45,426 nucleotides of DNA from IMG/VR virus record IMGVR_UViG_2595698887_000001. One strand, written 5' to 3'. Numbering within the stretch: the first letter of the stretch is position 1; each line of letters starts with the position of its first letter. The position numbers and the translations under genes were made by a program. Below, in pieces: positions 25,954-40,420 of the stretch. A model generated the notes under the pieces. That model saw only the letters and a list, made by a program, of their open reading frames with translations. It was not told the DNA's origin and did no database searches. The stretch is from a virus (lineage: Duplodnaviria; Heunggongvirae; Uroviricota; Caudoviricetes).

Positions 25954-25983
25954 AAAAAGGCTCCCTATTGGGAGCCTTTCTTA
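25954..25983. terminator. Bidirectional terminator at the convergence of the two gene blocks
   Basis: AAAAAGGCTCCC-TATT-GGGAGCCTTTCTT, with T-tracts on both strands. Confidence 0.85.
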
Positions 25984-25984
25984 T

Positions 25985-27166
25985 TTAGATACAGTGGATG
26001 AAGTTACGACCATACGGTAACCCGATTGGGGCAAAGGGGATATCATCGTCGAAGTCCATTGGAGGAGCATCGTCGAAATCAACAGGCGGTGCCTCAACCG
26101 TACCGCTCAGAGGCTCCTGTACGGGCTGTGACGGCTTCTGAGCTTCTTCCTGCGCGGTTGCACTGGCATAGGCATAGAACGTCGCTGCAAGGGCATACGC
26201 TTCGCGTGTTGCCTTCTCAAGTTCCTCTGCGTCGATAGTCTTGCCTTTAACAGCAATTGTCGTTACAGCAAACTTAACCGCATTGCCAACCGTCTGACCG
26301 ACATCCTTACCTTCAGTCTCTGACAGTTCTTTGATCAGTTTGGTTGTGACATCATGCACCACCTTACCAGCAGCCTCTACATCACCCTTAAAGCCGGAGA
26401 GCTTCAGGTTAACAAGGGCATTCATAGCATGACCAGCAGACACGCCGACAGGATCATAAGGTGTACGCTTACCTTTACCACCTGCTCCACCACCTTGACC
26501 AACAGGGCCATAAGCCTTGAAGCTATTGATGATATTGCCAGTTCCCAGATCAACGAATGCCGCCAGACGACCACCTACAGATACTTCTGCCAGTTGCTCA
26601 TCAGAGAGGACTACACGACCCTCGCCCTGTTTCTCATCGTTCACAACTGCAACGTTGCCTTCGATAGACAGGATTTCACCGTAGATCTTAGCACCCTTTC
26701 CACCGCCAGACTGTGCAGGAGCACTTGACTGCTGAGGGGCGGCATCTGCCGGGGCGTCAACCAGGATCTTGATGTCCTTCTTCTTGCCCTGATAAGAGGT
26801 ATTGGTTTTACCATCTTTCTCATAGGTCTGTTTCTGCACTGGATAGATGGAGATCTCTGCACCCGGTAATAGATCTTTATAGCTACCGTCAGCCTGCTTC
26901 ACCTGGAACTGGTTTTCGTATTTCAGGTTCTTAACTTCACCTTCACCGAAAGACACAAACTCATCAACGCCACCTGCGGTAAGCAGGATAGAGTAGCGGT
27001 GAGTTGAGGAAATAGTTTTCCCCGCATTAGGACCCTTGTTGATGTGGGTTACCTTAGCAGAACCATCAGCGTTGATACGCTTGATGAATACACGCTTGAT
27101 CACACCTTTAGCTTTCAGTGCAACAGAATCATCAGCCGGGTTCACTACTTCAGTAATTACGCTCAT
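25985..27166 (-). CDS. Putative single-stranded DNA-binding protein
   Basis: 393 aa from ATG 27166 (SD AAGGAG). Beta-rich N-terminal domains, Pro/Gln linker, PPMDFDDDIPF acidic tip plus a 15-aa extension. Confidence 0.65.
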   Translation of the reverse strand: MSVITEVVNPADDSVALKAKGVIKRVFIKRINADGSAKVTHINKGPNAGKTISSTHRYSILLTAGGVDEFVSFGEGEVKNLKYENQFQVKQADGSYKDLLPGAEISIYPVQKQTYEKDGKTNTSYQGKKKDIKILVDAPADAAPQQSSAPAQSGGGKGAKIYGEILSIEGNVAVVNDEKQGEGRVVLSDEQLAEVSVGGRLAAFVDLGTGNIINSFKAYGPVGQGGGAGGKGKRTPYDPVGVSAGHAMNALVNLKLSGFKGDVEAAGKVVHDVTTKLIKELSETEGKDVGQTVGNAVKFAVTTIAVKGKTIDAEELEKATREAYALAATFYAYASATAQEEAQKPSQPVQEPLSGTVEAPPVDFDDAPPMDFDDDIPFAPIGLPYGRNFIHCI

Positions 27167-27179
27167 TCTCTCTCCTTTA

Positions 27180-27530
27180 TTACTTAGTTTCTTCAGTCTG
27201 GGTTTCAGTATTAACACCCAGAAGTCTATCAACAATCAGGTCTTCAACCTGGCTCAACAGGTTCATCGCAAAAGAGGATGCACCGTTCAGTTGCAGCAGG
27301 TTATTACGATGACCACGAACCCATGCTAAAGCGTCTTCAACAGTGCCGTATTGACCGCTGTTGATAACTTTGAGCATTTCATCACGCATACGATCAGACC
27401 CGATGAATTGACTCATCTGAGCGCCAGCGCTTGAAAGAAATACAACGGTTCCGAACTGAGCCTCATCGAGGTCAAGGAAGTGTAGTTGTTCAGGTTGTTT
27501 GTCGATAGGGGTTACATCTTCAGTCATCAA
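27180..27530 (-). CDS. Hypothetical protein co-transcribed with the SSB-like gene
   Basis: 116 aa, SD GGAGG; first gene after the promoter at 27555-27583. Confidence 0.75.
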   Translation of the reverse strand: MMTEDVTPIDKQPEQLHFLDLDEAQFGTVVFLSSAGAQMSQFIGSDRMRDEMLKVINSGQYGTVEDALAWVRGHRNNLLQLNGASSFAMNLLSQVEDLIVDRLLGVNTETQTEETK

Positions 27531-30127: not shown

Positions 30128-30307
30128 CTAAACTAATGAGGGCATCACTGCAACCAGTGCGCCAGCGACCATCCCGATAAACATGCCGCCACCAACTAAC
30201 CAACCAAAATCCCCTGTTCCAAACTTGAGGCCACCGCAGAACGCCGTAAGCACAGAACAGACAGTAATTAAAAGAAATACACTTATGAATACCAGAACCT
30301 GTTTCAT
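30128..30307 (-). CDS. Small two-TM membrane protein (absent from the ORF track)
   Basis: 59 aa, MKQVLVFISVFLLITVCSVL...GMFIGMVAGALVAVMPSLV. ATGA overlap with the pnuC stop; SD GAGG. Confidence 0.65.
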   Translation of the reverse strand: MKQVLVFISVFLLITVCSVLTAFCGGLKFGTGDFGWLVGGGMFIGMVAGALVAVMPSLV

Positions 30308-31011
30308 TTTGATCCCTCTTTACGCCACTTGTAAGCACCATACACAGAGTTTAGCAGGAAAGTGACCCACATTGCAAGGTTTGCTGCTCCAGCACCTTCG
30401 TGGTGTAACGTCAGGTTAACCCACATACCCACCGCAACGATATTCACGATGATCCACACATACCACTGTTCGGCATAACGAGTCATCATTAAGTATGTTG
30501 CCAGCACTGACAAAATGGCTGTCGCTGCATCAGGGCCGGGTAAGGAGCCTTTCAACAGGGAGATACCCTCTGCATACAAACCAATCACGATCAGTGTACC
30601 AATACCCACCAACCAGCGTTGTTTTGTGGTCAGATAGTTCTTGATAACGTCTGCACGTTCACCGTCAGCAGAAACGTTCAGCTTACGCGCCCAGATAATC
30701 CCACCGATTACCTGCATCGGGGTGAATAGGACGGTATACATGATCGTTTCTCCATACAGTTTGTACGTGAATGACACATACGCATACAGCACTGTTGCGA
30801 TGAAGCCCCAATAGTAACTGGAAAGTTTACCTTTCGCAACCAAAATCGCACCAACGATACCAGTTACGGAAGAGATAAACTCCACCATCGTACCACCAGT
30901 CACAATAGAGACTGTCGCGATGGATGCGGAACAGATCAGAAGCCAGAGGTATTCAAGTTTTGTCCAACCATAGAAGTCTGTCCAGGTTGTTTTTACGTAT
31001 AGATTCATCAT
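30304..31011 (-). CDS. pnuC: Nicotinamide riboside transporter PnuC
   Basis: 235 aa from ATG 31011 (SD AGGAG). Multi-pass; LVAKGKLSSYYWG, YKLYGE and MMTRYAEQWYVWIIVNIV motifs. Confidence 0.85.
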   Translation of the reverse strand: MMNLYVKTTWTDFYGWTKLEYLWLLICSASIATVSIVTGGTMVEFISSVTGIVGAILVAKGKLSSYYWGFIATVLYAYVSFTYKLYGETIMYTVLFTPMQVIGGIIWARKLNVSADGERADVIKNYLTTKQRWLVGIGTLIVIGLYAEGISLLKGSLPGPDAATAILSVLATYLMMTRYAEQWYVWIIVNIVAVGMWVNLTLHHEGAGAANLAMWVTFLLNSVYGAYKWRKEGSK

Positions 31012-31031
31012 GTAATCTTTTCTCCTGTTGT

Positions 31032-31262
31032 TTATCGGATACGAACTTCGTCTAACGAGATAGACTTTAGCCCATATTTTTCTGGTTGTCCAGCAAATTC
31101 TTCTTCGGTGTAGCAAAAAGACCAAGAACTCCCACGGGCATCAAACATCTCAAATCTGGCATCATACGGATGACGAGCCTCGATGCAGACGTAGAAGTTT
31201 CCGAGAGACATACCATCCTTCGTCTGTTGGTTCATACCGAAGGTGAAGTAGTATTTATTCAT
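31032..31262 (-). CDS. Hypothetical protein
   Basis: 76 aa from ATG 31262 (SD AGGAGG); YYFTFG motif common in phage proteins. Confidence 0.7.
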   Translation of the reverse strand: MNKYYFTFGMNQQTKDGMSLGNFYVCIEARHPYDARFEMFDARGSSWSFCYTEEEFAGQPEKYGLKSISLDEVRIR

Positions 31263-31542
31263 GATTTCCACCTCCTGCCCGGCGCACTACAATTCGGCAC
31301 TCTTCCATGAGGCTATTTGTGTGGTCTTCTGGTATGTTTGCCTTGATACGCCATGCTTCATACTCTGCCAGCAAACGCTCCATACAACTTAGTAAATCAG
31401 GTGAGGCAGCAATAAGTCTTGCATTGGCGCGGGTTTCTTCATAACCAACAAGACAACACTTTGCAATTTTTATTTCATGCAGAATTCCAGTTCCAACCTC
31501 AGACCCATCGTTTGACCAAGGGCCGGGTGTGTGTTTAGCCAT
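31255..31542 (-). CDS. HTPGPW-family hypothetical protein
   Basis: MAKHTPGPW...ANARLIAASPDLL, a widespread phage family. Confidence 0.75.
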   Translation of the reverse strand: MAKHTPGPWSNDGSEVGTGILHEIKIAKCCLVGYEETRANARLIAASPDLLSCMERLLAEYEAWRIKANIPEDHTNSLMEECRIVVRRAGGGNHE

Positions 31543-31873
31543 TTTGACTCCTTTGTTTAGCCCATTCAATTGCCGCAAGTATCACGTCGCAGTGACATGC
31601 TACTTCTTTGTTCGGCTGTTTACAGAAGCATACAAGGTCTTTACCGTCCAAGTCAAGCAGATCTTGAATAGTTATTTTGCCTACGCGGATCTGTTGCCAT
31701 AACCAGACACGATATCTTTCAATTGTGGCCCCACGAGGCTCATCTTTCGACAGCTTGAATGGATTGGCAAACTTGGATTGTTTCAGGCCGAGGTGGGGCA
31801 TTGCTCGCCCCATGTACTCAGCATTCTCAGGTATCACTTTACCGATATGGTAGAAGTTGAGCACCTTAGCCAT
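31535..31873 (-). CDS. DUF4326-like protein
   Basis: YMGR...SKFANPF...IERYRVWL...LDGKDLVCFC...CHCDVI motif set. Confidence 0.75.
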   Translation of the reverse strand: MAKVLNFYHIGKVIPENAEYMGRAMPHLGLKQSKFANPFKLSKDEPRGATIERYRVWLWQQIRVGKITIQDLLDLDGKDLVCFCKQPNKEVACHCDVILAAIEWAKQRSQNG

Positions 31874-32297
31874 TTTTATCCATCCGGCTATGAAGCTCTG
31901 CTGACATTTCCTTGACCCACTGAGTGATTGAAACACCCTCATACTCATCTGTTAAGCTGGAGTCTTTCAGCAACCAAATGATCGCATTGCGAAGATGCTC
32001 ATCCGACATATGGGTGATCCGGACAACATTTCCCTCTTGGGTTTTCCAGACCAGAATCTGCTCTTGCTTTTCAGGCTTTGGAAGCACATCATACCCAGCA
32101 GGGGCAATCATAATGCCGTTGCAACCACACAGGCAGCGAGTGATCATCTTTTCCTGCTCCAGTTGCGTGAGAGAGATATCCACAACCATAGGACTGAGGC
32201 CCAGTGCCTCTTCGATCACGTAGTGAAAAGTCCATGCTTCAGTCTTCTCCAGATCCTCTTTCAAAAACTGGAGGATTAATAGATTAACGCGATCCAT
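31866..32297 (-). CDS. Hypothetical protein with possible N-terminal winged HTH
   Basis: 143 aa. IEEALGLSPMVVDISLTQLEQEKMITR; C-terminal WKTQEG...MSDEHLRNAI motif. Confidence 0.65.
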   Translation of the reverse strand: MDRVNLLILQFLKEDLEKTEAWTFHYVIEEALGLSPMVVDISLTQLEQEKMITRCLCGCNGIMIAPAGYDVLPKPEKQEQILVWKTQEGNVVRITHMSDEHLRNAIIWLLKDSSLTDEYEGVSITQWVKEMSAELHSRMDKNG

Positions 32298-32298
32298 C

Positions 32299-33372
32299 TT
32301 ATTCTCCTTTAATATTCAGCAATTTACGGACAGCTTCTTCTGCTTGTTTGATCCTATCTTCGTAACTGTTGCCTTGAATGGCTACTACTTGGCACTTATT
32401 ATAATAGTAGTTGACCATACATTCAAGCGTTCTGTTAGTTTCTTCTCGTTTTTCTGGCGTATCTTGTAAACGCAGGGGATCTGCAACCCACGGAACCTCT
32501 GGAGTGAGGTACAGAATGAGATCGTAAAAATTCTCTCCCTCTTCAAGATTCAAAGCGTGGAACAGTCTGTCGCCGTGCTCAATCTTACCCGCACAGATAC
32601 CGGAGAAGTGCGTGATCAGGTTTGTGGTGTCGGAGAACATCACCCCGCGATCACCCCACCCAGCCACCTCCATCTCCTTCAGGCGATGCTCCATTGCAAT
32701 ACGCAGGTAATCCTCACGGGTCATTGCAAACTCGCTTGAATGATACTCACGCTCACAAATCAGTCTTCCGATCTCAGGAATCCAGGCAGCGCCGAATGTG
32801 TGCGCTAAGTGTTCGGTCATGGTGGTTTTTCCCGTGCTTTCTACACCGATGATAGCTACCTTCTTAATGAAGCGCTTACGTGCAGGCCACGACAAGTGGT
32901 AGAAATTCTTGTACGGGTCATTACGGATCATCGTGGCAGAAATGGGGACAGCTTTACGTTCTGCGTCGATAACAACATGCTTCGCTTCAGGGAAGAACTC
33001 ACTGAAGTAAGACTCATACTCCGGCTCAGAAGAGAAAGCAAAGTCGTACTTAACGAACGGCTGCTTTTCACGGATCAGTTTTGCGTATGCGGCACCGCCT
33101 TCAGGGTATCCTGGGATGTTCGACTCATCAACGTAGTCAACCTTCACGTTGTCCAAGCCCTCATCGGCAATAACATCCAGCAGGTCACGATAGCGATCAG
33201 CAAGCCCCAACTTTGGACGAATCCACCCTGGTTGTGCATCTACAAATTTCTGATCATAGGACAGGAACAGGTACAGAACACTTACCTGAGATGCAGCTTT
33301 GACAATGAAATTAATATGCCCGTTAGTCAGTGGCGCAAATTTTCCGAAGATGAGGCCGCGCGTCATAGTCAT
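32299..33372 (-). CDS. nadR: NadR-like NMN adenylyltransferase / ribosylnicotinamide kinase
   Basis: FGKFAPLTNGH (T/HxGH), VPISATMIR, Walker A GVESTGKTT, FSDTT and WVADPLR; no N-terminal HTH. Confidence 0.9.
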   Translation of the reverse strand: MTMTRGLIFGKFAPLTNGHINFIVKAASQVSVLYLFLSYDQKFVDAQPGWIRPKLGLADRYRDLLDVIADEGLDNVKVDYVDESNIPGYPEGGAAYAKLIREKQPFVKYDFAFSSEPEYESYFSEFFPEAKHVVIDAERKAVPISATMIRNDPYKNFYHLSWPARKRFIKKVAIIGVESTGKTTMTEHLAHTFGAAWIPEIGRLICEREYHSSEFAMTREDYLRIAMEHRLKEMEVAGWGDRGVMFSDTTNLITHFSGICAGKIEHGDRLFHALNLEEGENFYDLILYLTPEVPWVADPLRLQDTPEKREETNRTLECMVNYYYNKCQVVAIQGNSYEDRIKQAEEAVRKLLNIKGE

Positions 33373-35102: not shown

Positions 35103-37817
35103 TTAATGACATTCAGCCCAGTTCTTACCAGTCAGATAAGCTCCTGTGATATGAACCGGAGAACCCATCATCTTAGCGGCTTTCTCGACACATTTCACAA
35201 CCATCTCACCAACAGGGCAATACTGAATCTGAATCTTACCATCTTCGCCAAAGATACCTTCGTATACGGTTTTGCCGTCAGCATCTTTAACCTTTTCGCC
35301 ATTCTCGTCCTTGACCGCTTTTCTCCACTCGTGACCGTCGAATACACGGCCCTTTGCTTCCCACTCTTTGACAAAGGCGGTAGCCTCTTCAAGAGTATCG
35401 AATTTCCATCTCTTCAGATACTTTTCCGGAACCTGAAGCTGGTATTCATCGTGGTAGTAAATTAGACGGCGAACGTCATCATCGTACCAACCACGCTTGA
35501 TCAGTTCCCAGTGCAGCAGGATACCAACCAAGTCGAACAGAGAAGCACCACCGTTCTGCTGGTAAGCATTCAGGAGTGAGTGCTTGGAGCGAGTCCAGAT
35601 CTTACGTCCATCTAAGCCAGGAATATAGCGTTTCCCGGTAGCTTCCCAGAAGTTTTCCAGCCATTCTTTACGGCCTTTCAACCCAAAGTTACTATCCCAG
35701 AAAGCATCAATTACCGCCTGTGCTTTATCGAGGGAGATGTTGAGCATCGCAGCAATCTTCGCTGCCTGAGCACCATACATGATACCGTATGTTACACCCT
35801 TACCACCGTTACGAGTAACGAGTGTCCCGGATGCCTTGGTATATGCCTCGGCGTTTCGTGCGTGAGCATCTCCACTCTCCATTATACGCAGATATTCACC
35901 GCCGTCAAACTGATATGCACCCCATGCGGCGATCATACCTTCAAGGTTAGAACCGTCAATACCAACCTGGTAATAACCATCGGTCACACCCCACAGACCA
36001 CGCATTTCTTTACCGAGCAGTACCTTCGGGTCTGGCTTAGGCATGTTTGCACAGATGGTGTGCTTACAGCGCCCGGTGTTCGTGATCCCAGAGAAACGTG
36101 CAGGGAGTTTACCATCAATCGCCAAGCGAGGGTGATTCAGCAACCCTGTGTCGTTCTTGTCCTCATCAATCGGGTCGAGAACAGATCGACGGTTACGCAG
36201 TGACAGCCACTTAACAATCTGTTTAGCCAAGTGAACATCAATACGTTCGAGGTTCGGACACAACTTCCCAAAGTTATCTTTCAACTGAGGGGATGTTGGG
36301 AGCATACGCGCCTTACGTCTGAACTTCTTGAAGATCTCCGCATAGCCTTTCTCCGAGCCGTGACGGTGATCGAACTTCCTTTCAGAGATGTTGAACTTCT
36401 CATCACTGTTATTTAAGTGCTCTATAATCAGAGACTTATACTCGGACTCTCCCAGTTCCTCGATATACTTCCTGACCAACTCATCGATCTCAGGATCGGT
36501 ACGTGCCTTTTTGAACTGATCCTTAGTAACATCCTTGACACGCCACAGCGTAGGCTTCCAGTTGGCATCACGGATCAGGTACTTCTTGATGTCGTCCTGG
36601 TTCGAGATTTTCATCGGAACCATCAGATCAGGCATCTTCCCATTACGAAGGTCTTCTTTGGCCTTTTCCATCAAATCCGGAGGCAGAGGCACAAGGGTGT
36701 TCTCTTTCTGACGCTGCTCACGAATGTAGTCGCCAAAGTGCATAGGGTCTTCAACACCGTTCTGGAGGCAATAGCGCTCACCTGCTGCACTCACCTCACC
36801 ATTCCCTTTGAACGCCGTCTTTGGTGGTCCTTTGAACTCCAAAGCTTCACGGTTAACCGGATATCCCAGCTTGTACTGGAGCCAGTTCCACCCGTGGTGA
36901 GAGATGTTCCCTGCCCCGTCGAACGGGTTAGCCGGGAACTTAGGTTGTTGAGATTTCGTCATTTCCTTTAACGGAAGTAACGGCTCAACTTCCTCTTCAA
37001 TCTCCTTCATCATCACATCAATGCGATCACGAAGTTTCTCAGCCTCATACTTATTGAAAGGCACACCCTGAATCTCTTGCTCAACCATCAGGTAATCAGT
37101 AAGCATACGACGACGAAGAGCATTTTTCCAGTTGATCTGACGGAGACCTTCTGGCTTGTCGGTATACATGAACTGCTTGTCATCAGGCCAACGAGCACCA
37201 GTGGATTCATCAATCAATGCTTTCCACGTTAGTTCGTTGATCAGCACGTCTTCCCACACACGGTTAACGTATTCCCAGAGTGGTTGGTTACGCCAGTCAT
37301 CGATCTGCACTTTTTTGTTTGCTACACGATAACCCCAGGCCATCAAACCATGCGGTCCCACACGGTCCCTGCGTCCGGTAACCGGGTTTAGTACAGAATC
37401 AGGGCAACCGTTAGGCAACGGGCGGTCAGGGTACAGAACACGGCTCATTGATAATGTGTCGTACAGATTCACCTGGGTGTCCCCAATGGTGCCAAGACAC
37501 TTAGGATCTTTGAACATGTTGTATTCAATGCCCGACAGCTTGTTCCACAAACGCAGGTCGTAACCAAACAAGTTGTGACATGCAATTCCACGGCAAGTTT
37601 TCAGGAACGCCTCAAGCTCATCATATGAGCGGATCGTGAGATTGGCTTCGGTCTTGCTCTTGGCAAATGTCACTGCACTATCATACTCTGGGTGTGCTGG
37701 ATCTAAAAACAGATTCCAGTTGTTAACGCCGTATTCCTTGAGCAGGGTACAGTGGTACTTCGTTACTTCATCTAACAGACCATCAGCTTCGTTGTCCGTT
37801 ATAAACAAACCTTTCAT
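35103..37817 (-). CDS. DNA polymerase, family A, with 3'-5' exonuclease
   Basis: 904 aa from ATG 37817 (SD AGGAGG). ExoI ITDNEAD, ExoII HNLFGYD, motif A GIDGSNLE, motif B RNGGKGVTYGIMYG, motif C YHDE. Confidence 0.95.
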   Translation of the reverse strand: MKGLFITDNEADGLLDEVTKYHCTLLKEYGVNNWNLFLDPAHPEYDSAVTFAKSKTEANLTIRSYDELEAFLKTCRGIACHNLFGYDLRLWNKLSGIEYNMFKDPKCLGTIGDTQVNLYDTLSMSRVLYPDRPLPNGCPDSVLNPVTGRRDRVGPHGLMAWGYRVANKKVQIDDWRNQPLWEYVNRVWEDVLINELTWKALIDESTGARWPDDKQFMYTDKPEGLRQINWKNALRRRMLTDYLMVEQEIQGVPFNKYEAEKLRDRIDVMMKEIEEEVEPLLPLKEMTKSQQPKFPANPFDGAGNISHHGWNWLQYKLGYPVNREALEFKGPPKTAFKGNGEVSAAGERYCLQNGVEDPMHFGDYIREQRQKENTLVPLPPDLMEKAKEDLRNGKMPDLMVPMKISNQDDIKKYLIRDANWKPTLWRVKDVTKDQFKKARTDPEIDELVRKYIEELGESEYKSLIIEHLNNSDEKFNISERKFDHRHGSEKGYAEIFKKFRRKARMLPTSPQLKDNFGKLCPNLERIDVHLAKQIVKWLSLRNRRSVLDPIDEDKNDTGLLNHPRLAIDGKLPARFSGITNTGRCKHTICANMPKPDPKVLLGKEMRGLWGVTDGYYQVGIDGSNLEGMIAAWGAYQFDGGEYLRIMESGDAHARNAEAYTKASGTLVTRNGGKGVTYGIMYGAQAAKIAAMLNISLDKAQAVIDAFWDSNFGLKGRKEWLENFWEATGKRYIPGLDGRKIWTRSKHSLLNAYQQNGGASLFDLVGILLHWELIKRGWYDDDVRRLIYYHDEYQLQVPEKYLKRWKFDTLEEATAFVKEWEAKGRVFDGHEWRKAVKDENGEKVKDADGKTVYEGIFGEDGKIQIQYCPVGEMVVKCVEKAAKMMGSPVHITGAYLTGKNWAECH

Positions 37818-37872
37818 GTTCCTCCTATGCAAGGTGGGCTTGACTGTATCGTCGCCCACCTATCAGTTGGTG

Positions 37873-38388
37873 TTATTGATCCGGGTCAATACTCATTTCT
37901 TTTAACCTCTTATGCTCCTTTGTGTGACATTTTGAGCAGAGCCACTCCACTGAAAGCCAGTGTATTTCTTCATAAGAATGGTGATGTCCATGCAGAACCC
38001 TTTTCATACCACAGTGCTCACAAAGAGATGGTTTTTTCAACTTTCCATCTCTTACTGCATTGTTAACTGCACTGTGGGCCTTGTACTTGTTCGGATTCTT
38101 GACTCTATACCTCTTTATTCCTTCAAGGTGATTCTTCTTTCCAATCTCTGTCTGAGAGTACAGTTTTGCTTTTAGAACCCGGTGCGGTAATTTGTTCCTC
38201 TTTTTGTCGAACTCACGGTAATAATCAATTTTCGAGGACCTGTTCTGCCTGACATCTTTTTTGTTGCATTCTTTACATTTGTTTACATGACCATCAGCCA
38301 TTTGCGGGTGTTTGTAAAACTCAGTGAGGGGTTTCTCAACCCCACACTTAAAACACACCTTACAGGGCATAGATTGCATGATTTGCAT
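37873..38388 (-). mobile_element. Free-standing HNH homing endonuclease
   Basis: CFKC and KCKEC zinc knuckles; CEHC...HGHHHSY...WLCSKCHTKEH. AT-richer than its flanks; overlaps the primase 3' end. Confidence 0.85.
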
Positions 38389-40420
38389 ATTGTAAACCTA
38401 TAGGGGCAAATGGTGTATCGTTATCAAAGTCCTGTGGGTTAGGAAGCTGAACAGGAGCATCCATAACAGGCGCTGGTACGTTGACCTTGCCTACCGGAGT
38501 CTCAAGTTGCAGAGATTGAATCATACCTTCAGGGCGAAGCATAACCACCCCATCAAGTTTGAACATCCCATCTTCCCATACCCAACCAGACGCATCAGTG
38601 AATTGTCCGTTTTCATCCATGATCATAGTGTCAGCGACACCAAGTTTTTTGTGTGGGCGGTTCTTCATTACAACCACACGCACACGTCCACGAGAGCGGT
38701 CTGGTAGCTCTTCTGGCTCAACACCCAATACAATCCAGGATAATTGTTCCAGTGCAGCAGAACCACGCAGATCTTCTTTACGTACAGGATACCAGAAAGG
38801 CAACATGTTGCCGTCTTTGTCCTTCGGTAGCTGAAGTTCTTTACGCTTCATGTGGCTAATGCTGAGAATGAACACATCGTACTGCTTACAGAATGCAGCA
38901 AGCTCGGTCATGATGTTGTCCAGGTCTCGACGTTCGTTATCAGATTTGAGGCCGGAGATAACCATACTCAGGTGGTCAAGGATAATCCACTTACAACCAT
39001 CCAGGAATACCATCTGTTTCAGCTTCTGAATCAACTGATCCGTAGGGATAGAGCCGAAGTGATCAAAGATCTTGATCTTGTCTTCCTTGATCCAGCGTTG
39101 GTGAATCTCCAGGTGCTGCTCTTCGGTTAGGAACTGCTCAGGGTCTGCAACGAAAGCTTTAGGGTCAACCTTCAACTCCTCAGCGTACAGGCTGTTTACA
39201 GACTCTTCCTCATCCTCTTCCAGACGAATGATCGCAACCTTTTCATGTTCAGTCCAACCATCAAGACGAGGGATGCTCATATCTCGAAGATAGTTCACAA
39301 TGGCATACTCGATCTTACGTGAGATTGTTGACTTACCACCACCAGACGGGCCAGTTAGTGTCCACAACTCACCAGTGCGAGGACCTTTGGTTAACTCATA
39401 AAGACGAGGCATACCTGGTAACGGAACACCATCTTTCTTCTTCTTGCGAAGGTTTTCAATGGTAATGTTGCTCAGGCTGATCAGCTTGTCAGGGACATAG
39501 CGGTCTTCTGCCTTGGAGAACATGTTCCAGATCTCACGACCCTTACCAGCATCGTACATGTCACGAACGTCTTTTACCCCGGCAGGGTCATTTCGCTCAT
39601 TAGGGTAACGTGCCACAAAGATGTTGTCTGTCAGCAGGAATGCTGCCACATCGTCTGTTGCTTCCTTACCTTTCTTGACCTTACGTTCCTTTTCCAGAGC
39701 GGTTGCTTCATCGTTATCAAAACCGAGAACAACCTTCTCATAGCCACGAATGAACTTCTCGTTGTTGGCAAAGGTATCTACTGCGTTGGCTGTGCCGCAG
39801 TTTAATCCGACAAATGGTAATGTCGGAACACCTGCAACCTCTTCACCGTTCTGAATAGAGGCGATACCTTTCAGAACGCTTGCAGCCCAATCCTTAACAC
39901 CCTTCGGTGCATTAGGGCTTGCTTGCAGAGCTTTCACAAACTCAAACCCTGCCTGCCAACCAGCGGTAACATCACCCTCACCCTCTACGATGAAGATCTG
40001 TTTACGACCCGCACCCATAGCGGCTTCGTGTTGACCGAAGAACTGTGAAGCGGCCTTAACAGTCCCCACCACAGAGAAGTGACCTTTCTTCTCTTTTGGC
40101 AGAGTCCAGTCACGTTTTTTATATCCAGTCAGCTTACCGTATTTGTCGTAATATGGCAAATAGGTGGCTGTGATCGTCACACCGTCACTTGGGGATACGG
40201 ATGAACGGATCTTAAAATATTTTGCTGCGTCGAGAGAGAGACTCATTTCAGGAACTGGCAGAATGCGGGTGCCATTGACTACAGATTCCAGGGTCTCTTC
40301 TTCACGTTGCTGATAACTCACTCTTCCTCCACGATTGCCTTTACTTCCAAAATTCTGTGCTTTCGGGTTCTCCTGTCCACCTTGTCGGTAAGCAGCCCAA
40401 TCCGGACCATTTCCCATCAT
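38360..40420 (-). CDS. Primase-helicase (T7 gp4-like TOPRIM plus DnaB-type helicase)
   Basis: 686 aa. IVEGEGD and GFDNDE (TOPRIM), Walker A GPSGGGKS, IILDHLS, LRGSAALEQLS, VMKNR. Confidence 0.95.
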   Translation of the reverse strand: MMGNGPDWAAYRQGGQENPKAQNFGSKGNRGGRVSYQQREEETLESVVNGTRILPVPEMSLSLDAAKYFKIRSSVSPSDGVTITATYLPYYDKYGKLTGYKKRDWTLPKEKKGHFSVVGTVKAASQFFGQHEAAMGAGRKQIFIVEGEGDVTAGWQAGFEFVKALQASPNAPKGVKDWAASVLKGIASIQNGEEVAGVPTLPFVGLNCGTANAVDTFANNEKFIRGYEKVVLGFDNDEATALEKERKVKKGKEATDDVAAFLLTDNIFVARYPNERNDPAGVKDVRDMYDAGKGREIWNMFSKAEDRYVPDKLISLSNITIENLRKKKKDGVPLPGMPRLYELTKGPRTGELWTLTGPSGGGKSTISRKIEYAIVNYLRDMSIPRLDGWTEHEKVAIIRLEEDEEESVNSLYAEELKVDPKAFVADPEQFLTEEQHLEIHQRWIKEDKIKIFDHFGSIPTDQLIQKLKQMVFLDGCKWIILDHLSMVISGLKSDNERRDLDNIMTELAAFCKQYDVFILSISHMKRKELQLPKDKDGNMLPFWYPVRKEDLRGSAALEQLSWIVLGVEPEELPDRSRGRVRVVVMKNRPHKKLGVADTMIMDENGQFTDASGWVWEDGMFKLDGVVMLRPEGMIQSLQLETPVGKVNVPAPVMDAPVQLPNPQDFDNDTPFAPIGLQYANHAIYAL

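What the first reader, a model, noticed from the sequence alone, without database searches (positions are those of the whole stretch)
38360..38431. Same 23-residue C-terminal tag on primase-helicase and SSB: candidate masked-SSB-tip tagging system
Seen: the primase-helicase ends DFDNDTPF-APIGLQYANHAIYAL and the SSB-like protein 12 kb away ends DFDDDIPF-APIGLPYGRNFIHCI. 13 of 23 residues are identical, exactly 15 residues follow the PF in both, and both end hydrophobic with Ile four from the end. Among the 12 identical residues in the first 15 positions, 6 use different synonymous codons, so conservation is at the peptide level rather than from a recent DNA duplication. The two proteins are otherwise unrelated. 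Established: bacterial SSB partners bind the DDDIPF tip through its free terminal Phe carboxylate, and T7 gp4 and gp2.5 both use acidic tails to dock on the polymerase. Inference: this phage puts one modular signal on two replisome proteins. It could be a cap removed by a protease at PF/AP to unmask an SSB-type tip at a set time, a shared docking peptide, or a degradation/localisation tag.
Basis: partly seen in the sequence, partly recalled or inferred. Interest (0 to 1): 0.9.

Follow-up and report, generated by a model that had tools for sequence, protein, structure and literature searches.

The report
Mobile 15-residue cap on SSB-type tips
Both replication proteins do end in the same 23-residue tail: the SSB docking tip, which both have by descent, plus a conserved and apparently undescribed 15-residue cap that is present or absent among near-identical phages and reached the primase-helicase inside a homing-endonuclease cassette.

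Summary
The primase-helicase (38360..40420, minus strand) ends DFDNDTPF+APIGLQYANHAIYAL. The SSB-like protein (25985..27166, minus strand) ends DFDDDIPF+APIGLPYGRNFIHCI.

The tail has two layers:
- **Tip.** The acidic x-P-F tip is the usual end of both protein families.
- **Cap.** The 15-residue cap is a separate 45-bp in-frame module lying exactly between the Phe codon and the stop.

The nearest relative, Enterobacter phage EC152 (98% identical), lacks the cap on both proteins. All four combinations occur in related phages, so this is not an obligate two-protein system.

On the primase-helicase the cap arrived as one 537-bp block with an HNH endonuclease gene (37873..38388), whose start lies 29 nt inside the cap. 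This endonuclease family sits almost only at the 3' ends of genes ending in x-P-F.

The cap is still not junk:
- It is on many HNH-free prophage SSBs, including one allele family in about 7% of complete E. coli genomes.
- It was 15 residues long in 95 of 95 cases.
- It shows purifying selection (pN/pS 0.32; three invariant residues, each with 3-5 synonymous codons).
- It is near-fixed, without the overlapping HNH gene, on Mydovirus primase-helicases.

Its partner and function are unknown, and I found no paper or solved structure. Earlier agents of this scan reported the same cap on about 20 other genomes.

The parts
38360..40420 (-). Primase-helicase gene (686 aa, DnaB_C/AAA_25 domain)
   Evidence: orthologue annotated as DNA primase/helicase in EC152.
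38408..38431 (-). Acidic tip DFDNDTPF, the usual C-terminus of this helicase family
   Evidence: 117 of 120 homologue clusters end ...D-x-P-F at this point; EC152 and PVP-SE1 stop here.
38363..38407 (-). 15-codon cap APIGLQYANHAIYAL (stop codon at 38360-38362)
   Evidence: absent from EC152, 4MG and LNA4; present with the overlapping HNH gene in L091 and KE23 and, as a 17-residue variant, in L100.
37873..38388 (-). HNH (beta-beta-alpha-Me) homing endonuclease gene with an N-terminal CxxC...CxxC zinc finger; its ATG lies 29 nt inside the cap
   Evidence: PHROG 2340 'endonuclease', E 3e-48; invariant C/H columns; AlphaFold2 pLDDT 96.8; weak Foldseek matches to Hpy99I, T5 SciA, Cap5, McrA and GVE2 HNH.
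37872..38408 (.). Inserted cap+HNH block (about 537 bp) that replaces 12 bp (taatccattcga) of EC152
   Evidence: The flanks are nearly identical to EC152; the only substitutions next to the block are the third positions of the P and F codons.
25985..27166 (-). SSB-like gene (393 aa from the ATG; the TTG ORF runs to 27235)
   Evidence: homologues annotated as ssDNA-binding protein in KpS11 and Mt1B1_P17.
26033..26056 (-). Tip DFDDDIPF, identical to the E. coli SSB C-terminus
   Evidence: PDB chains of E. coli SSB end ...PPMDFDDDIPF.
25988..26032 (-). 15-codon cap APIGLPYGRNFIHCI with no HNH gene downstream
   Evidence: An exact 45-nt indel against EC152, lying between the Phe codon and TAA.
25981..26013 (-). 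Ten-codon remnant in the endonuclease frame (MVVTSSTVSK*), resembling the N-terminus of the SSB-linked HNH of phage Mt1B1_P17 (MVETSCIASKVCFKCG)
   Evidence: Read and compared.
26036..26105 (.). Cluster of 14 substitutions against EC152 just 5' of the SSB cap, with none in the 125 nt 3' of it
   Evidence: consistent with a short conversion tract from a diverged donor.
35103..37859 (-). DNA polymerase gene next to the cassette (context)
   Evidence: ORF; EC152 orthologue annotated as DNA-directed DNA polymerase.

Best explanation
SHOWN. The 23-residue tag has two layers. The acidic D-x-D-x-P-F tip is the usual C-terminus of both the SSB-like protein and the primase-helicase in this phage group. 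The next 15 residues are a discrete, horizontally exchanged 'cap', consensus [AS]-P-[IV]-[GT]-L-[QP]-[YF]-x-x-[HN]-x-[IV]-[HY]-x-[ILV]. It is encoded by 45 bp inserted exactly between the Phe codon and the stop. The cap is widespread on SSBs of enterobacterial phages and prophages and is kept by selection on the peptide. A family of HNH endonuclease genes sits at the 3' ends of genes that end in the tip, and in the capped alleles it overlaps the last 29 nt of the cap.

INFERRED, how it got here. The endonuclease cuts alleles that lack it near the tip codons, and repair copies cap plus endonuclease gene from a donor. Because SSB and primase-helicase share the tip codons, the cassette can land on either gene. 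In this window the helicase still carries the whole cassette. The SSB carries a cap-only allele with a ten-codon endonuclease-frame remnant, which fits later loss of the endonuclease gene.

INFERRED, what it does. The cap removes the free terminal Phe carboxylate that SSB partners need. It most likely changes which proteins these tails dock, as a permanent mask or partner switch aimed at a host protein. A phage-specific pro-peptide system is less likely.
For: Tip is the usual end:
- 117 of 120 primase-helicase clusters and about 95 of 120 SSB-like clusters end at PF.

Cap is a discrete indel:
- The SSB differs from 98%-identical EC152 by an exact 45-nt indel.
- The helicase differs by a 537-bp cap+HNH block.

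Link to the endonuclease:
- The same 29-nt overlap is seen at the SSBs of rV5, ACG-M12, morffagbaw, Mt1B1_P17, PsgM04F and ABPH49, and at the helicases of L091 and KE23.
- In IMG/VR loci carrying this endonuclease, about 60 of 66 upstream ORFs of 80 aa or more end in an acidic x-P-F tip followed by 0 to 36 extra residues.
- The sampled upstream genes are PF00436 SSBs or a DnaB-like helicase.

Cap is selected:
- 74 capped SSB loci (72 of them prophage-type, none with this endonuclease downstream) give 27 prophage-type DNA alleles with pN/pS 0.32.
- A1, P2 and L5 are invariant, each with 3-5 synonymous codons, and the tip has pN 0.
- The motif follows PF and gives a 15-residue tail in 95 of 95 cases.
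- A profile search finds 44 clusters at the 50% identity level with tip+cap, on protein bodies of very different sizes.

Cap is kept without the overlapping endonuclease gene:
- About 26 Mydovirus records have it on the helicase, and KpS11 has it on both proteins.

No single phage partner:
- The genes next to capped prophage SSBs are Rad52, ERF, Sak4-like or HNH_3.
Against: Nothing here shows the endonuclease cutting or homing.

The endonuclease tree puts the helicase-linked genes in a different clade from the SSB-linked capped ones. So the cap is not inherited with one endonuclease lineage, and the order of events (cap first, or cassette first) is open.

Cap-only alleles are clean 45-nt insertions. 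A precise loss of the endonuclease gene would have to use only the TAA...TAA microhomology.

No binding partner was found.

The tip stays under very strong selection inside capped proteins. That fits unmasking by a protease as well as it fits a tip+cap unit.
Confidence: 0.6

Rival explanations
1. One reading: a dedicated tagging system in which the cap is a pro-peptide, cut at PF/AP by a protease at a set time to expose an SSB-type tip on both replisome proteins.
For: The cap is selected as a peptide and has a fixed length. The tip beneath the cap has pN 0 across 22 DNA alleles, as expected if it is eventually exposed and used. Ala-Pro directly after Phe is invariant.
Against: No protease travels with the cap; its carriers share no accessory genes. 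EC152 lacks both caps, and all four combinations exist among relatives, so the two tags are not a coupled system. The helicase cap in this lineage is a recent endonuclease-borne insertion.
Confidence: 0.12
2. Neutral scar: the extension is only read-through of the host gene into the leader of an inserted endonuclease cassette and has no function of its own.
For: Other members of this endonuclease family leave unrelated extensions of 1, 4, 5, 10, 22 or 36 residues after PF. The Gly-Leu-Gln-Tyr codons supply the endonuclease's Shine-Dalgarno-like AGGT and its ATG. The usual helicase end is uncapped.
Against: Prophage alleles without the endonuclease gene and without the ATG (LPF instead of LQY) keep the peptide through many synonymous changes, and keep exactly 15 residues. 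Mydovirus keeps the cap on the helicase after loss of the first endonuclease ATG (TAT to TAC).
Confidence: 0.1
3. The cap is a gain-of-function peptide: either a docking motif for a conserved host protein or a C-terminal degron that shortens the protein's life. The hexapeptide P-[VI]-[GT]-L-[PQ]-[FY] resembles the QLxLxL sliding-clamp-binding motif of Hda (QLSLPL) and Pol IV (QLVLGL). The degron reading rests on the non-polar end and on a resemblance to Lon and ClpXP tags. Both comparisons come from my own knowledge.
For: The N-terminal half is strongly conserved across very different protein bodies and phage types, which points to a common host partner. The last residue and the Ile or Val at position -4 are always hydrophobic.
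Against: The defining Gln of the clamp motif is replaced by Pro. The cap never occurs away from the tip (95 of 95), which is odd for an autonomous motif or degron. No test was possible.
Confidence: 0.18

Closest known systems
SSB-Ct: the C-terminal acidic tip of E. coli-type SSB (...PPMDFDDDIPF-COOH), the docking peptide for chi, ExoI, RecQ, PriA, RecO, DnaG and others
   Same: The SSB-like protein carries the identical nine residues PMDFDDDIPF, and the helicase carries a close variant, DFDNDTPF. In most relatives these are the true C-termini.
   Different: Here 15 residues follow the Phe, so the free alpha-carboxylate used in the solved complexes (my own knowledge) is missing. No PDB chain contains the cap.
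Phage T7 gp4 and gp2.5 acidic C-terminal tails ending in Phe, both of which dock on the T7 DNA polymerase (my own knowledge)
   Same: A primase-helicase and an ssDNA-binding protein of one phage end in the same kind of acidic, Phe-terminated tail, next to a family-A polymerase gene.
   Different: The tips are of the E. coli SSB type (x-P-F). They are capped in this phage, and the cap also occurs in prophages that have no polymerase of their own.
Free-standing homing endonuclease genes of T4-like phages (seg and mob genes), which spread between near-identical genomes and co-convert flanking markers (review PMC2988022, listed; not read in detail)
   Same: An HNH gene is present or absent at one intergenic site between near-identical phages. 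It overlaps the end of an essential gene, and at the SSB locus a patch of substitutions lies beside the insertion.
   Different: This family targets one peptide-coding motif, the tip codons, in unrelated genes and phage families. It carries a selected 15-codon extension of the host protein with it.
C-terminal degradation tags such as the ssrA tag (my own knowledge)
   Same: A short, non-polar, genetically portable C-terminal peptide.
   Different: It is genome-encoded rather than added by tmRNA, is always fused to the acidic tip, and no proteolysis data exist.

Membership tests
SSB-Ct acidic tip | Acidic run followed by I/T-P-F | tested here: met
   DFDDDIPF and DFDNDTPF; matches the E. coli SSB chains in the PDB.
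SSB-Ct acidic tip | Phe is the last residue, with a free carboxylate | tested here: not met
   Fifteen residues follow in both proteins. The feature is met in EC152 and in most homologues.
SSB-Ct acidic tip | Binds SSB-interacting proteins | not testable with these tools
OB-fold ssDNA-binding protein (for the 393-aa protein) | OB-fold DNA-binding domain | tested here: inconclusive
   No Pfam hit. The AlphaFold2 model has two beta-barrels. Foldseek hits to HIN-200, RPA and SSB are weak (E 6e-4 to 3e-2, TM below 0.4).
Free-standing HNH homing endonuclease | HNH / beta-beta-alpha-Me nuclease domain | tested here: met
   PHROG 2340 (endonuclease) at 3e-48 and endonuclease VII PHROGs; invariant C123, C126, H135, H136, C151, H155, H159. 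The fold hits to Hpy99I, SciA, Cap5 and McrA are weak, E 0.1 or more.
Free-standing HNH homing endonuclease | Present or absent at the same site in otherwise near-identical genomes | tested here: met
   Window against EC152, 4MG and LNA4.
Free-standing HNH homing endonuclease | Cuts the allele that lacks it and is copied in by repair | not testable with these tools
   Needs enzyme assays or mixed infections.
Free-standing HNH homing endonuclease | Co-conversion of flanking sequence | tested here: inconclusive
   Fourteen substitutions in the 70 nt 5' of the SSB cap, but only two beside the helicase cassette.
Sliding-clamp-binding motif (QL[SD]LF / QLxLxL) | Gln at position 1 | tested here: not met
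   Position 1 is an invariant Pro.
Sliding-clamp-binding motif (QL[SD]LF / QLxLxL) | Hydrophobic residues at positions 2, 4 and 6 | tested here: met
   [IV], L and [FY].
ssrA-like C-terminal degron | Non-polar C-terminal residues that cause proteolysis | not testable with these tools
   The ends are ...IYAL and ...IHCI; there are no stability data.

The most novel reading that the evidence does not exclude
The cap is a switch specific to mobile genetic elements. It turns the universal SSB docking tip on phage, prophage (and, by earlier scan notes, plasmid and ICE) replication proteins into a different signal: either hiding their ssDNA complexes from host SSB-partner nucleases, RecO-dependent RecA loading or SSB-sensing defences, or recruiting one particular host factor. 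A homing endonuclease family that homes to the tip codons acts as its vector, moving a functional peptide tag between unrelated proteins.
Probability: 0.3. Interest if true: 0.8.

Novelty: new variant of a known kind. Interest (0 to 1): 0.62.

Why it matters
The SSB C-terminal tip is among the best-studied protein hubs in bacterial DNA metabolism, and its free terminal Phe is taken as essential. A conserved, selected 15-residue cap over that tip appears to be undescribed. It is common on phage and prophage SSBs, including one allele family in 384-411 of 5,426 complete E. coli genomes, and it is also on primase-helicases.

- If the cap changes partner choice, it would show how mobile elements separate their own ssDNA handling from the host's, and it would give a ready-made peptide pair (tip against tip+cap) for pull-downs.
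- The endonuclease family is of interest in itself. It appears to target a conserved peptide-coding motif in unrelated genes, and it shows how a selfish gene can spread a short functional tag.

Tried and rejected
- **Pfam** found nothing for the SSB-like protein or the HNH protein at E up to 0.01.
- **Papers.** A full-text search for the cap strings found nothing. The HK620 Sak4/SSB paper (PMC5928155) concerns an uncapped NDYPPF tail. A search for homing endonucleases at ssb genes gave nothing specific.
- **Solved structures.** A PDB profile search found only bare tips.
- **Folding back.** AlphaFold2 of the SSB-like protein gave a disordered tail, pLDDT 35-50 for residues 341-393, so there is no support for the cap folding back on the body.
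- **A single phage-encoded partner** is rejected: the genes next to capped prophage SSBs belong to different families.
- **A coupled two-protein system** is rejected: all four cap combinations exist.
- **An autonomous cap motif** was looked for: in all loci held, the motif never occurs without a preceding PF.
- **Whole genome.** None was held for the window.
Full report
**1. What is in the window**

The minus-strand ORF 38360..40420 encodes a 686-aa protein with a DnaB_C/AAA_25 helicase domain. It ends ...PQDFDNDTPFAPIGLQYANHAIYAL. The minus-strand ORF 25985..27235 (probable ATG at 27166) ends ...PPMDFDDDIPFAPIGLPYGRNFIHCI.

- 13 of 23 residues are identical.
- 15 residues follow PF in both.
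- Ile is fourth from the end in both.
- Six of the 12 identical residues in the first 15 positions use different codons.

A six-frame scan finds the motif nowhere else in the 45 kb.

The window comes from a member of the Vequintavirinae (Seunavirus-like). It is 98% identical to Enterobacter phage EC152 and 93-96% identical to Escherichia phages 4MG and LNA4.

**2. The tail has two layers**

The tip is the usual end of both families.
- Of 120 primase-helicase cluster representatives, 117 end at an acidic x-P-F tip and only three carry the extension.
- Of 120 relatives of the SSB-like protein, about 95 end ...DDDIPF and about 25 carry an extension of 15, rarely 16, residues.

The nearest relative, EC152, ends both proteins at Phe.
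- At the SSB locus the two phages differ by an exact 45-nt indel between the Phe codon and TAA, and the downstream sequence is identical.
- At the helicase locus, 537 bp holding the 15 codons plus an HNH endonuclease gene (37873..38388) replace 12 bp of EC152. The flanks are almost identical.

I call the 15 residues the cap.

**3. The two caps are not coupled**

| Cap on | Phages |
|---|---|
| Both proteins | this window, KpS11, BIS47, SalP219 |
| SSB only | PVP-SE1, VLCpiM5a |
| Helicase only | KpS8, DP |
| Neither | EC152, 4MG |

In the phage collection, 30 of 76 records that match the helicase tail run through the cap. Four are Salmonella or Escherichia phages and about 26 are Mydovirus.

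**4. The link to a homing endonuclease**

The HNH ORF starts 29 nt inside the helicase cap. Its Shine-Dalgarno-like AGGT lies in the Ile-Gly codons, its ATG lies in the Tyr codon, and the cap's TAA lies inside the endonuclease's Cys-Lys codons.

Phage rV5 has the same layout at its SSB gene. Its cap APVGLQYGKSRIHAL overlaps the endonuclease gene gp208 by 29 nt, and the N-terminal zinc-finger region of gp208 is 58% identical to the window's protein.

The same cap-plus-overlap arrangement recurs widely:
- at the SSB genes of T1-like phages (ACG-M12, morffagbaw, ESh4);
- at those of phi92-like phages (Mt1B1_P17, nieznany, PsgM04F);
- at the SSB gene of Acinetobacter phage ABPH49;
- at the primase-helicases of L091, KE23 and L100.

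In 80 IMG/VR loci that carry a homologue, about 60 of the 66 upstream ORFs of 80 aa or more end in an acidic x-P-F tip. The tip is followed by 0, 1, 4, 5, 10, 15, 17 or 22 extra residues; 36 follow in the phage-collection record MW202512 (L096). The sampled upstream genes are PF00436 SSBs or a DnaB-like helicase.

The protein belongs to PHROG 2340 (endonuclease). Its conserved Cys and His columns are typical of zinc-bound HNH nucleases. It folds confidently (pLDDT 96.8), but the fold matches to beta-beta-alpha-Me nucleases are only weak.

So this endonuclease family specialises in the 3' ends of genes that end in the SSB-type tip. That explains how one cassette can sit on two otherwise unrelated genes.

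**5. The cap is not a read-through accident**

- A search of viral contigs found about 70 canonical OB-fold SSBs of 150-190 aa on 40-50-kb prophage-like contigs. They end MDFDDDIPF plus exactly 15 residues, for example APVTLPFPRHAIHAI or APIGLPYPRHAIYVI, and none has this endonuclease downstream.
- Twenty-seven distinct DNA alleles give pN/pS 0.32. Ala1, Pro2 and Leu5 are invariant, each with 3-5 synonymous codons. The tip before the cap has pN 0.
- One allele family is present in 384-411 of 5,426 complete E. coli genomes.
- A profile search of 1.84 billion representatives found 44 clusters with tip+cap, on protein bodies from about 130 to 480 aa.
- In every locus held, the motif follows PF and leaves a 15-residue tail, 95 of 95.
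- KpS11 and Mydo keep the cap on the helicase with no overlapping endonuclease gene. The first endonuclease ATG has been lost through a synonymous TAT-to-TAC change. Five of the eight differences from the window's cap are synonymous.

**6. The likely history here (inference)**

- *Helicase.* The cassette is recent: its flanks match EC152 apart from the third positions of the Pro and Phe codons.
- *SSB.* The cap-only allele keeps an endonuclease-frame remnant, MVVTSSTVSK*, which resembles MVETSCIASKVCFKCG of the phi92-type SSB-linked endonuclease. The cap of that phage, APIGLQYGRNFLHCF, is also the closest to the window's.
- *Further traces.* KpS11 keeps a further remnant after its stop codon. 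Fourteen substitutions against EC152 cluster in the 70 nt upstream of the SSB cap.

These points fit import by recombination with a capped donor, followed by loss of the endonuclease gene.

They do not settle the order of events. The endonuclease tree places helicase-linked and SSB-linked genes in different clades, and rV5 pairs the same leader with a different nuclease domain. So the leader and cap also move by recombination between endonuclease genes.

**7. Function**

Nothing here shows what the cap binds.
- The tail is predicted to be disordered.
- No solved structure contains the cap.
- No paper containing the cap strings was found.
- The genes next to capped prophage SSBs are Rad52, ERF, Sak4-like or HNH_3, and carriers range from lambdoid prophages to 150-kb myoviruses. 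The common factor is therefore the enterobacterial host, not a phage partner.

My ranking of the readings, all by inference:

| Reading | Rough probability |
|---|---|
| Permanent mask or partner switch of the tip towards a host protein | 0.35 |
| Gain-of-function docking motif or degron | 0.18 |
| Pro-peptide unmasked by a host protease | 0.12 |
| Neutral scar | 0.10 |

The strong selection on the buried tip keeps the pro-peptide reading alive.

**8. Relation to earlier work in this scan**

After reaching these conclusions I looked up earlier notes. About 20 other windows carry the same 15-residue cap after DDDIPF. Their follow-up agents independently reported three things: the cap is conserved, it is tied to an HNH gene, and no function or publication is known. 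One of them had already seen it on a class of primase-helicase.

This window adds four points:
- a clean natural comparison with EC152, which lacks both caps;
- proof that the two caps assort independently;
- the block nature of the helicase cassette;
- the remnant evidence at the SSB locus.

Noticed in passing
L105-L170 (IMG/VR loci carrying the same endonuclease family): Many environmental SSBs upstream of this endonuclease end ...DIPF plus one extra residue (N, S, K or D) before the stop. The Phe/stop junction may therefore be the insertion point even where no 15-residue cap is present.
   Followed up: partly
L009:3744-4367 (rV5 gp208): It has the same N-terminal zinc-finger leader as the window's HNH (58% identity over 48 aa), but the rest of the protein is unrelated. 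This indicates domain shuffling among these endonucleases.
   Followed up: partly
L096:304-741 (MW202512): The SSB reading frame runs 36 residues past DDDIPF into the endonuclease gene, with no similarity to the cap. This is a true read-through case for comparison.
   Followed up: no
L095 (Kashira) and L098 (Amme-3): The endonuclease sits directly after ...DDSCPF* or ...DSDVPF* with no cap. In Kashira its start codon lies inside the host gene's own acidic tail; in Amme-3 it overlaps the stop codon as TGATG.
   Followed up: partly
P0040-P0077, P0088-P0102, P0108 (primase-helicase homologues): Many rV5-like primase-helicases are about 975-998 aa instead of about 666 aa. One carries intein or homing-endonuclease Pfam domains (PF05203, PF05204, PF14528). 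PVP-SE1 has an I-HmuI-like HNH gene inside a split primase-helicase gene. The gene is a hotspot for mobile elements.
   Followed up: no
window 30304-33372: A PnuC-like transporter ORF and a NadR-like ORF lie a few genes apart on the minus strand, suggesting a phage nicotinamide-riboside route to NAD. The identification is by eye from the translations.
   Followed up: no
H198 (NZ_CP026085.1, E. coli DH5alpha record): A capped prophage SSB allele (99.8% identical to L089) is present in a DH5alpha genome record. It may belong to the phi80-derived prophage of that strain, which would make an easy laboratory source.
   Followed up: no
L017:1645-2169: In some prophage loci an HNH_3-domain gene lies immediately upstream of the capped SSB gene. 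This is a second, unrelated endonuclease family at the same gene.
   Followed up: no
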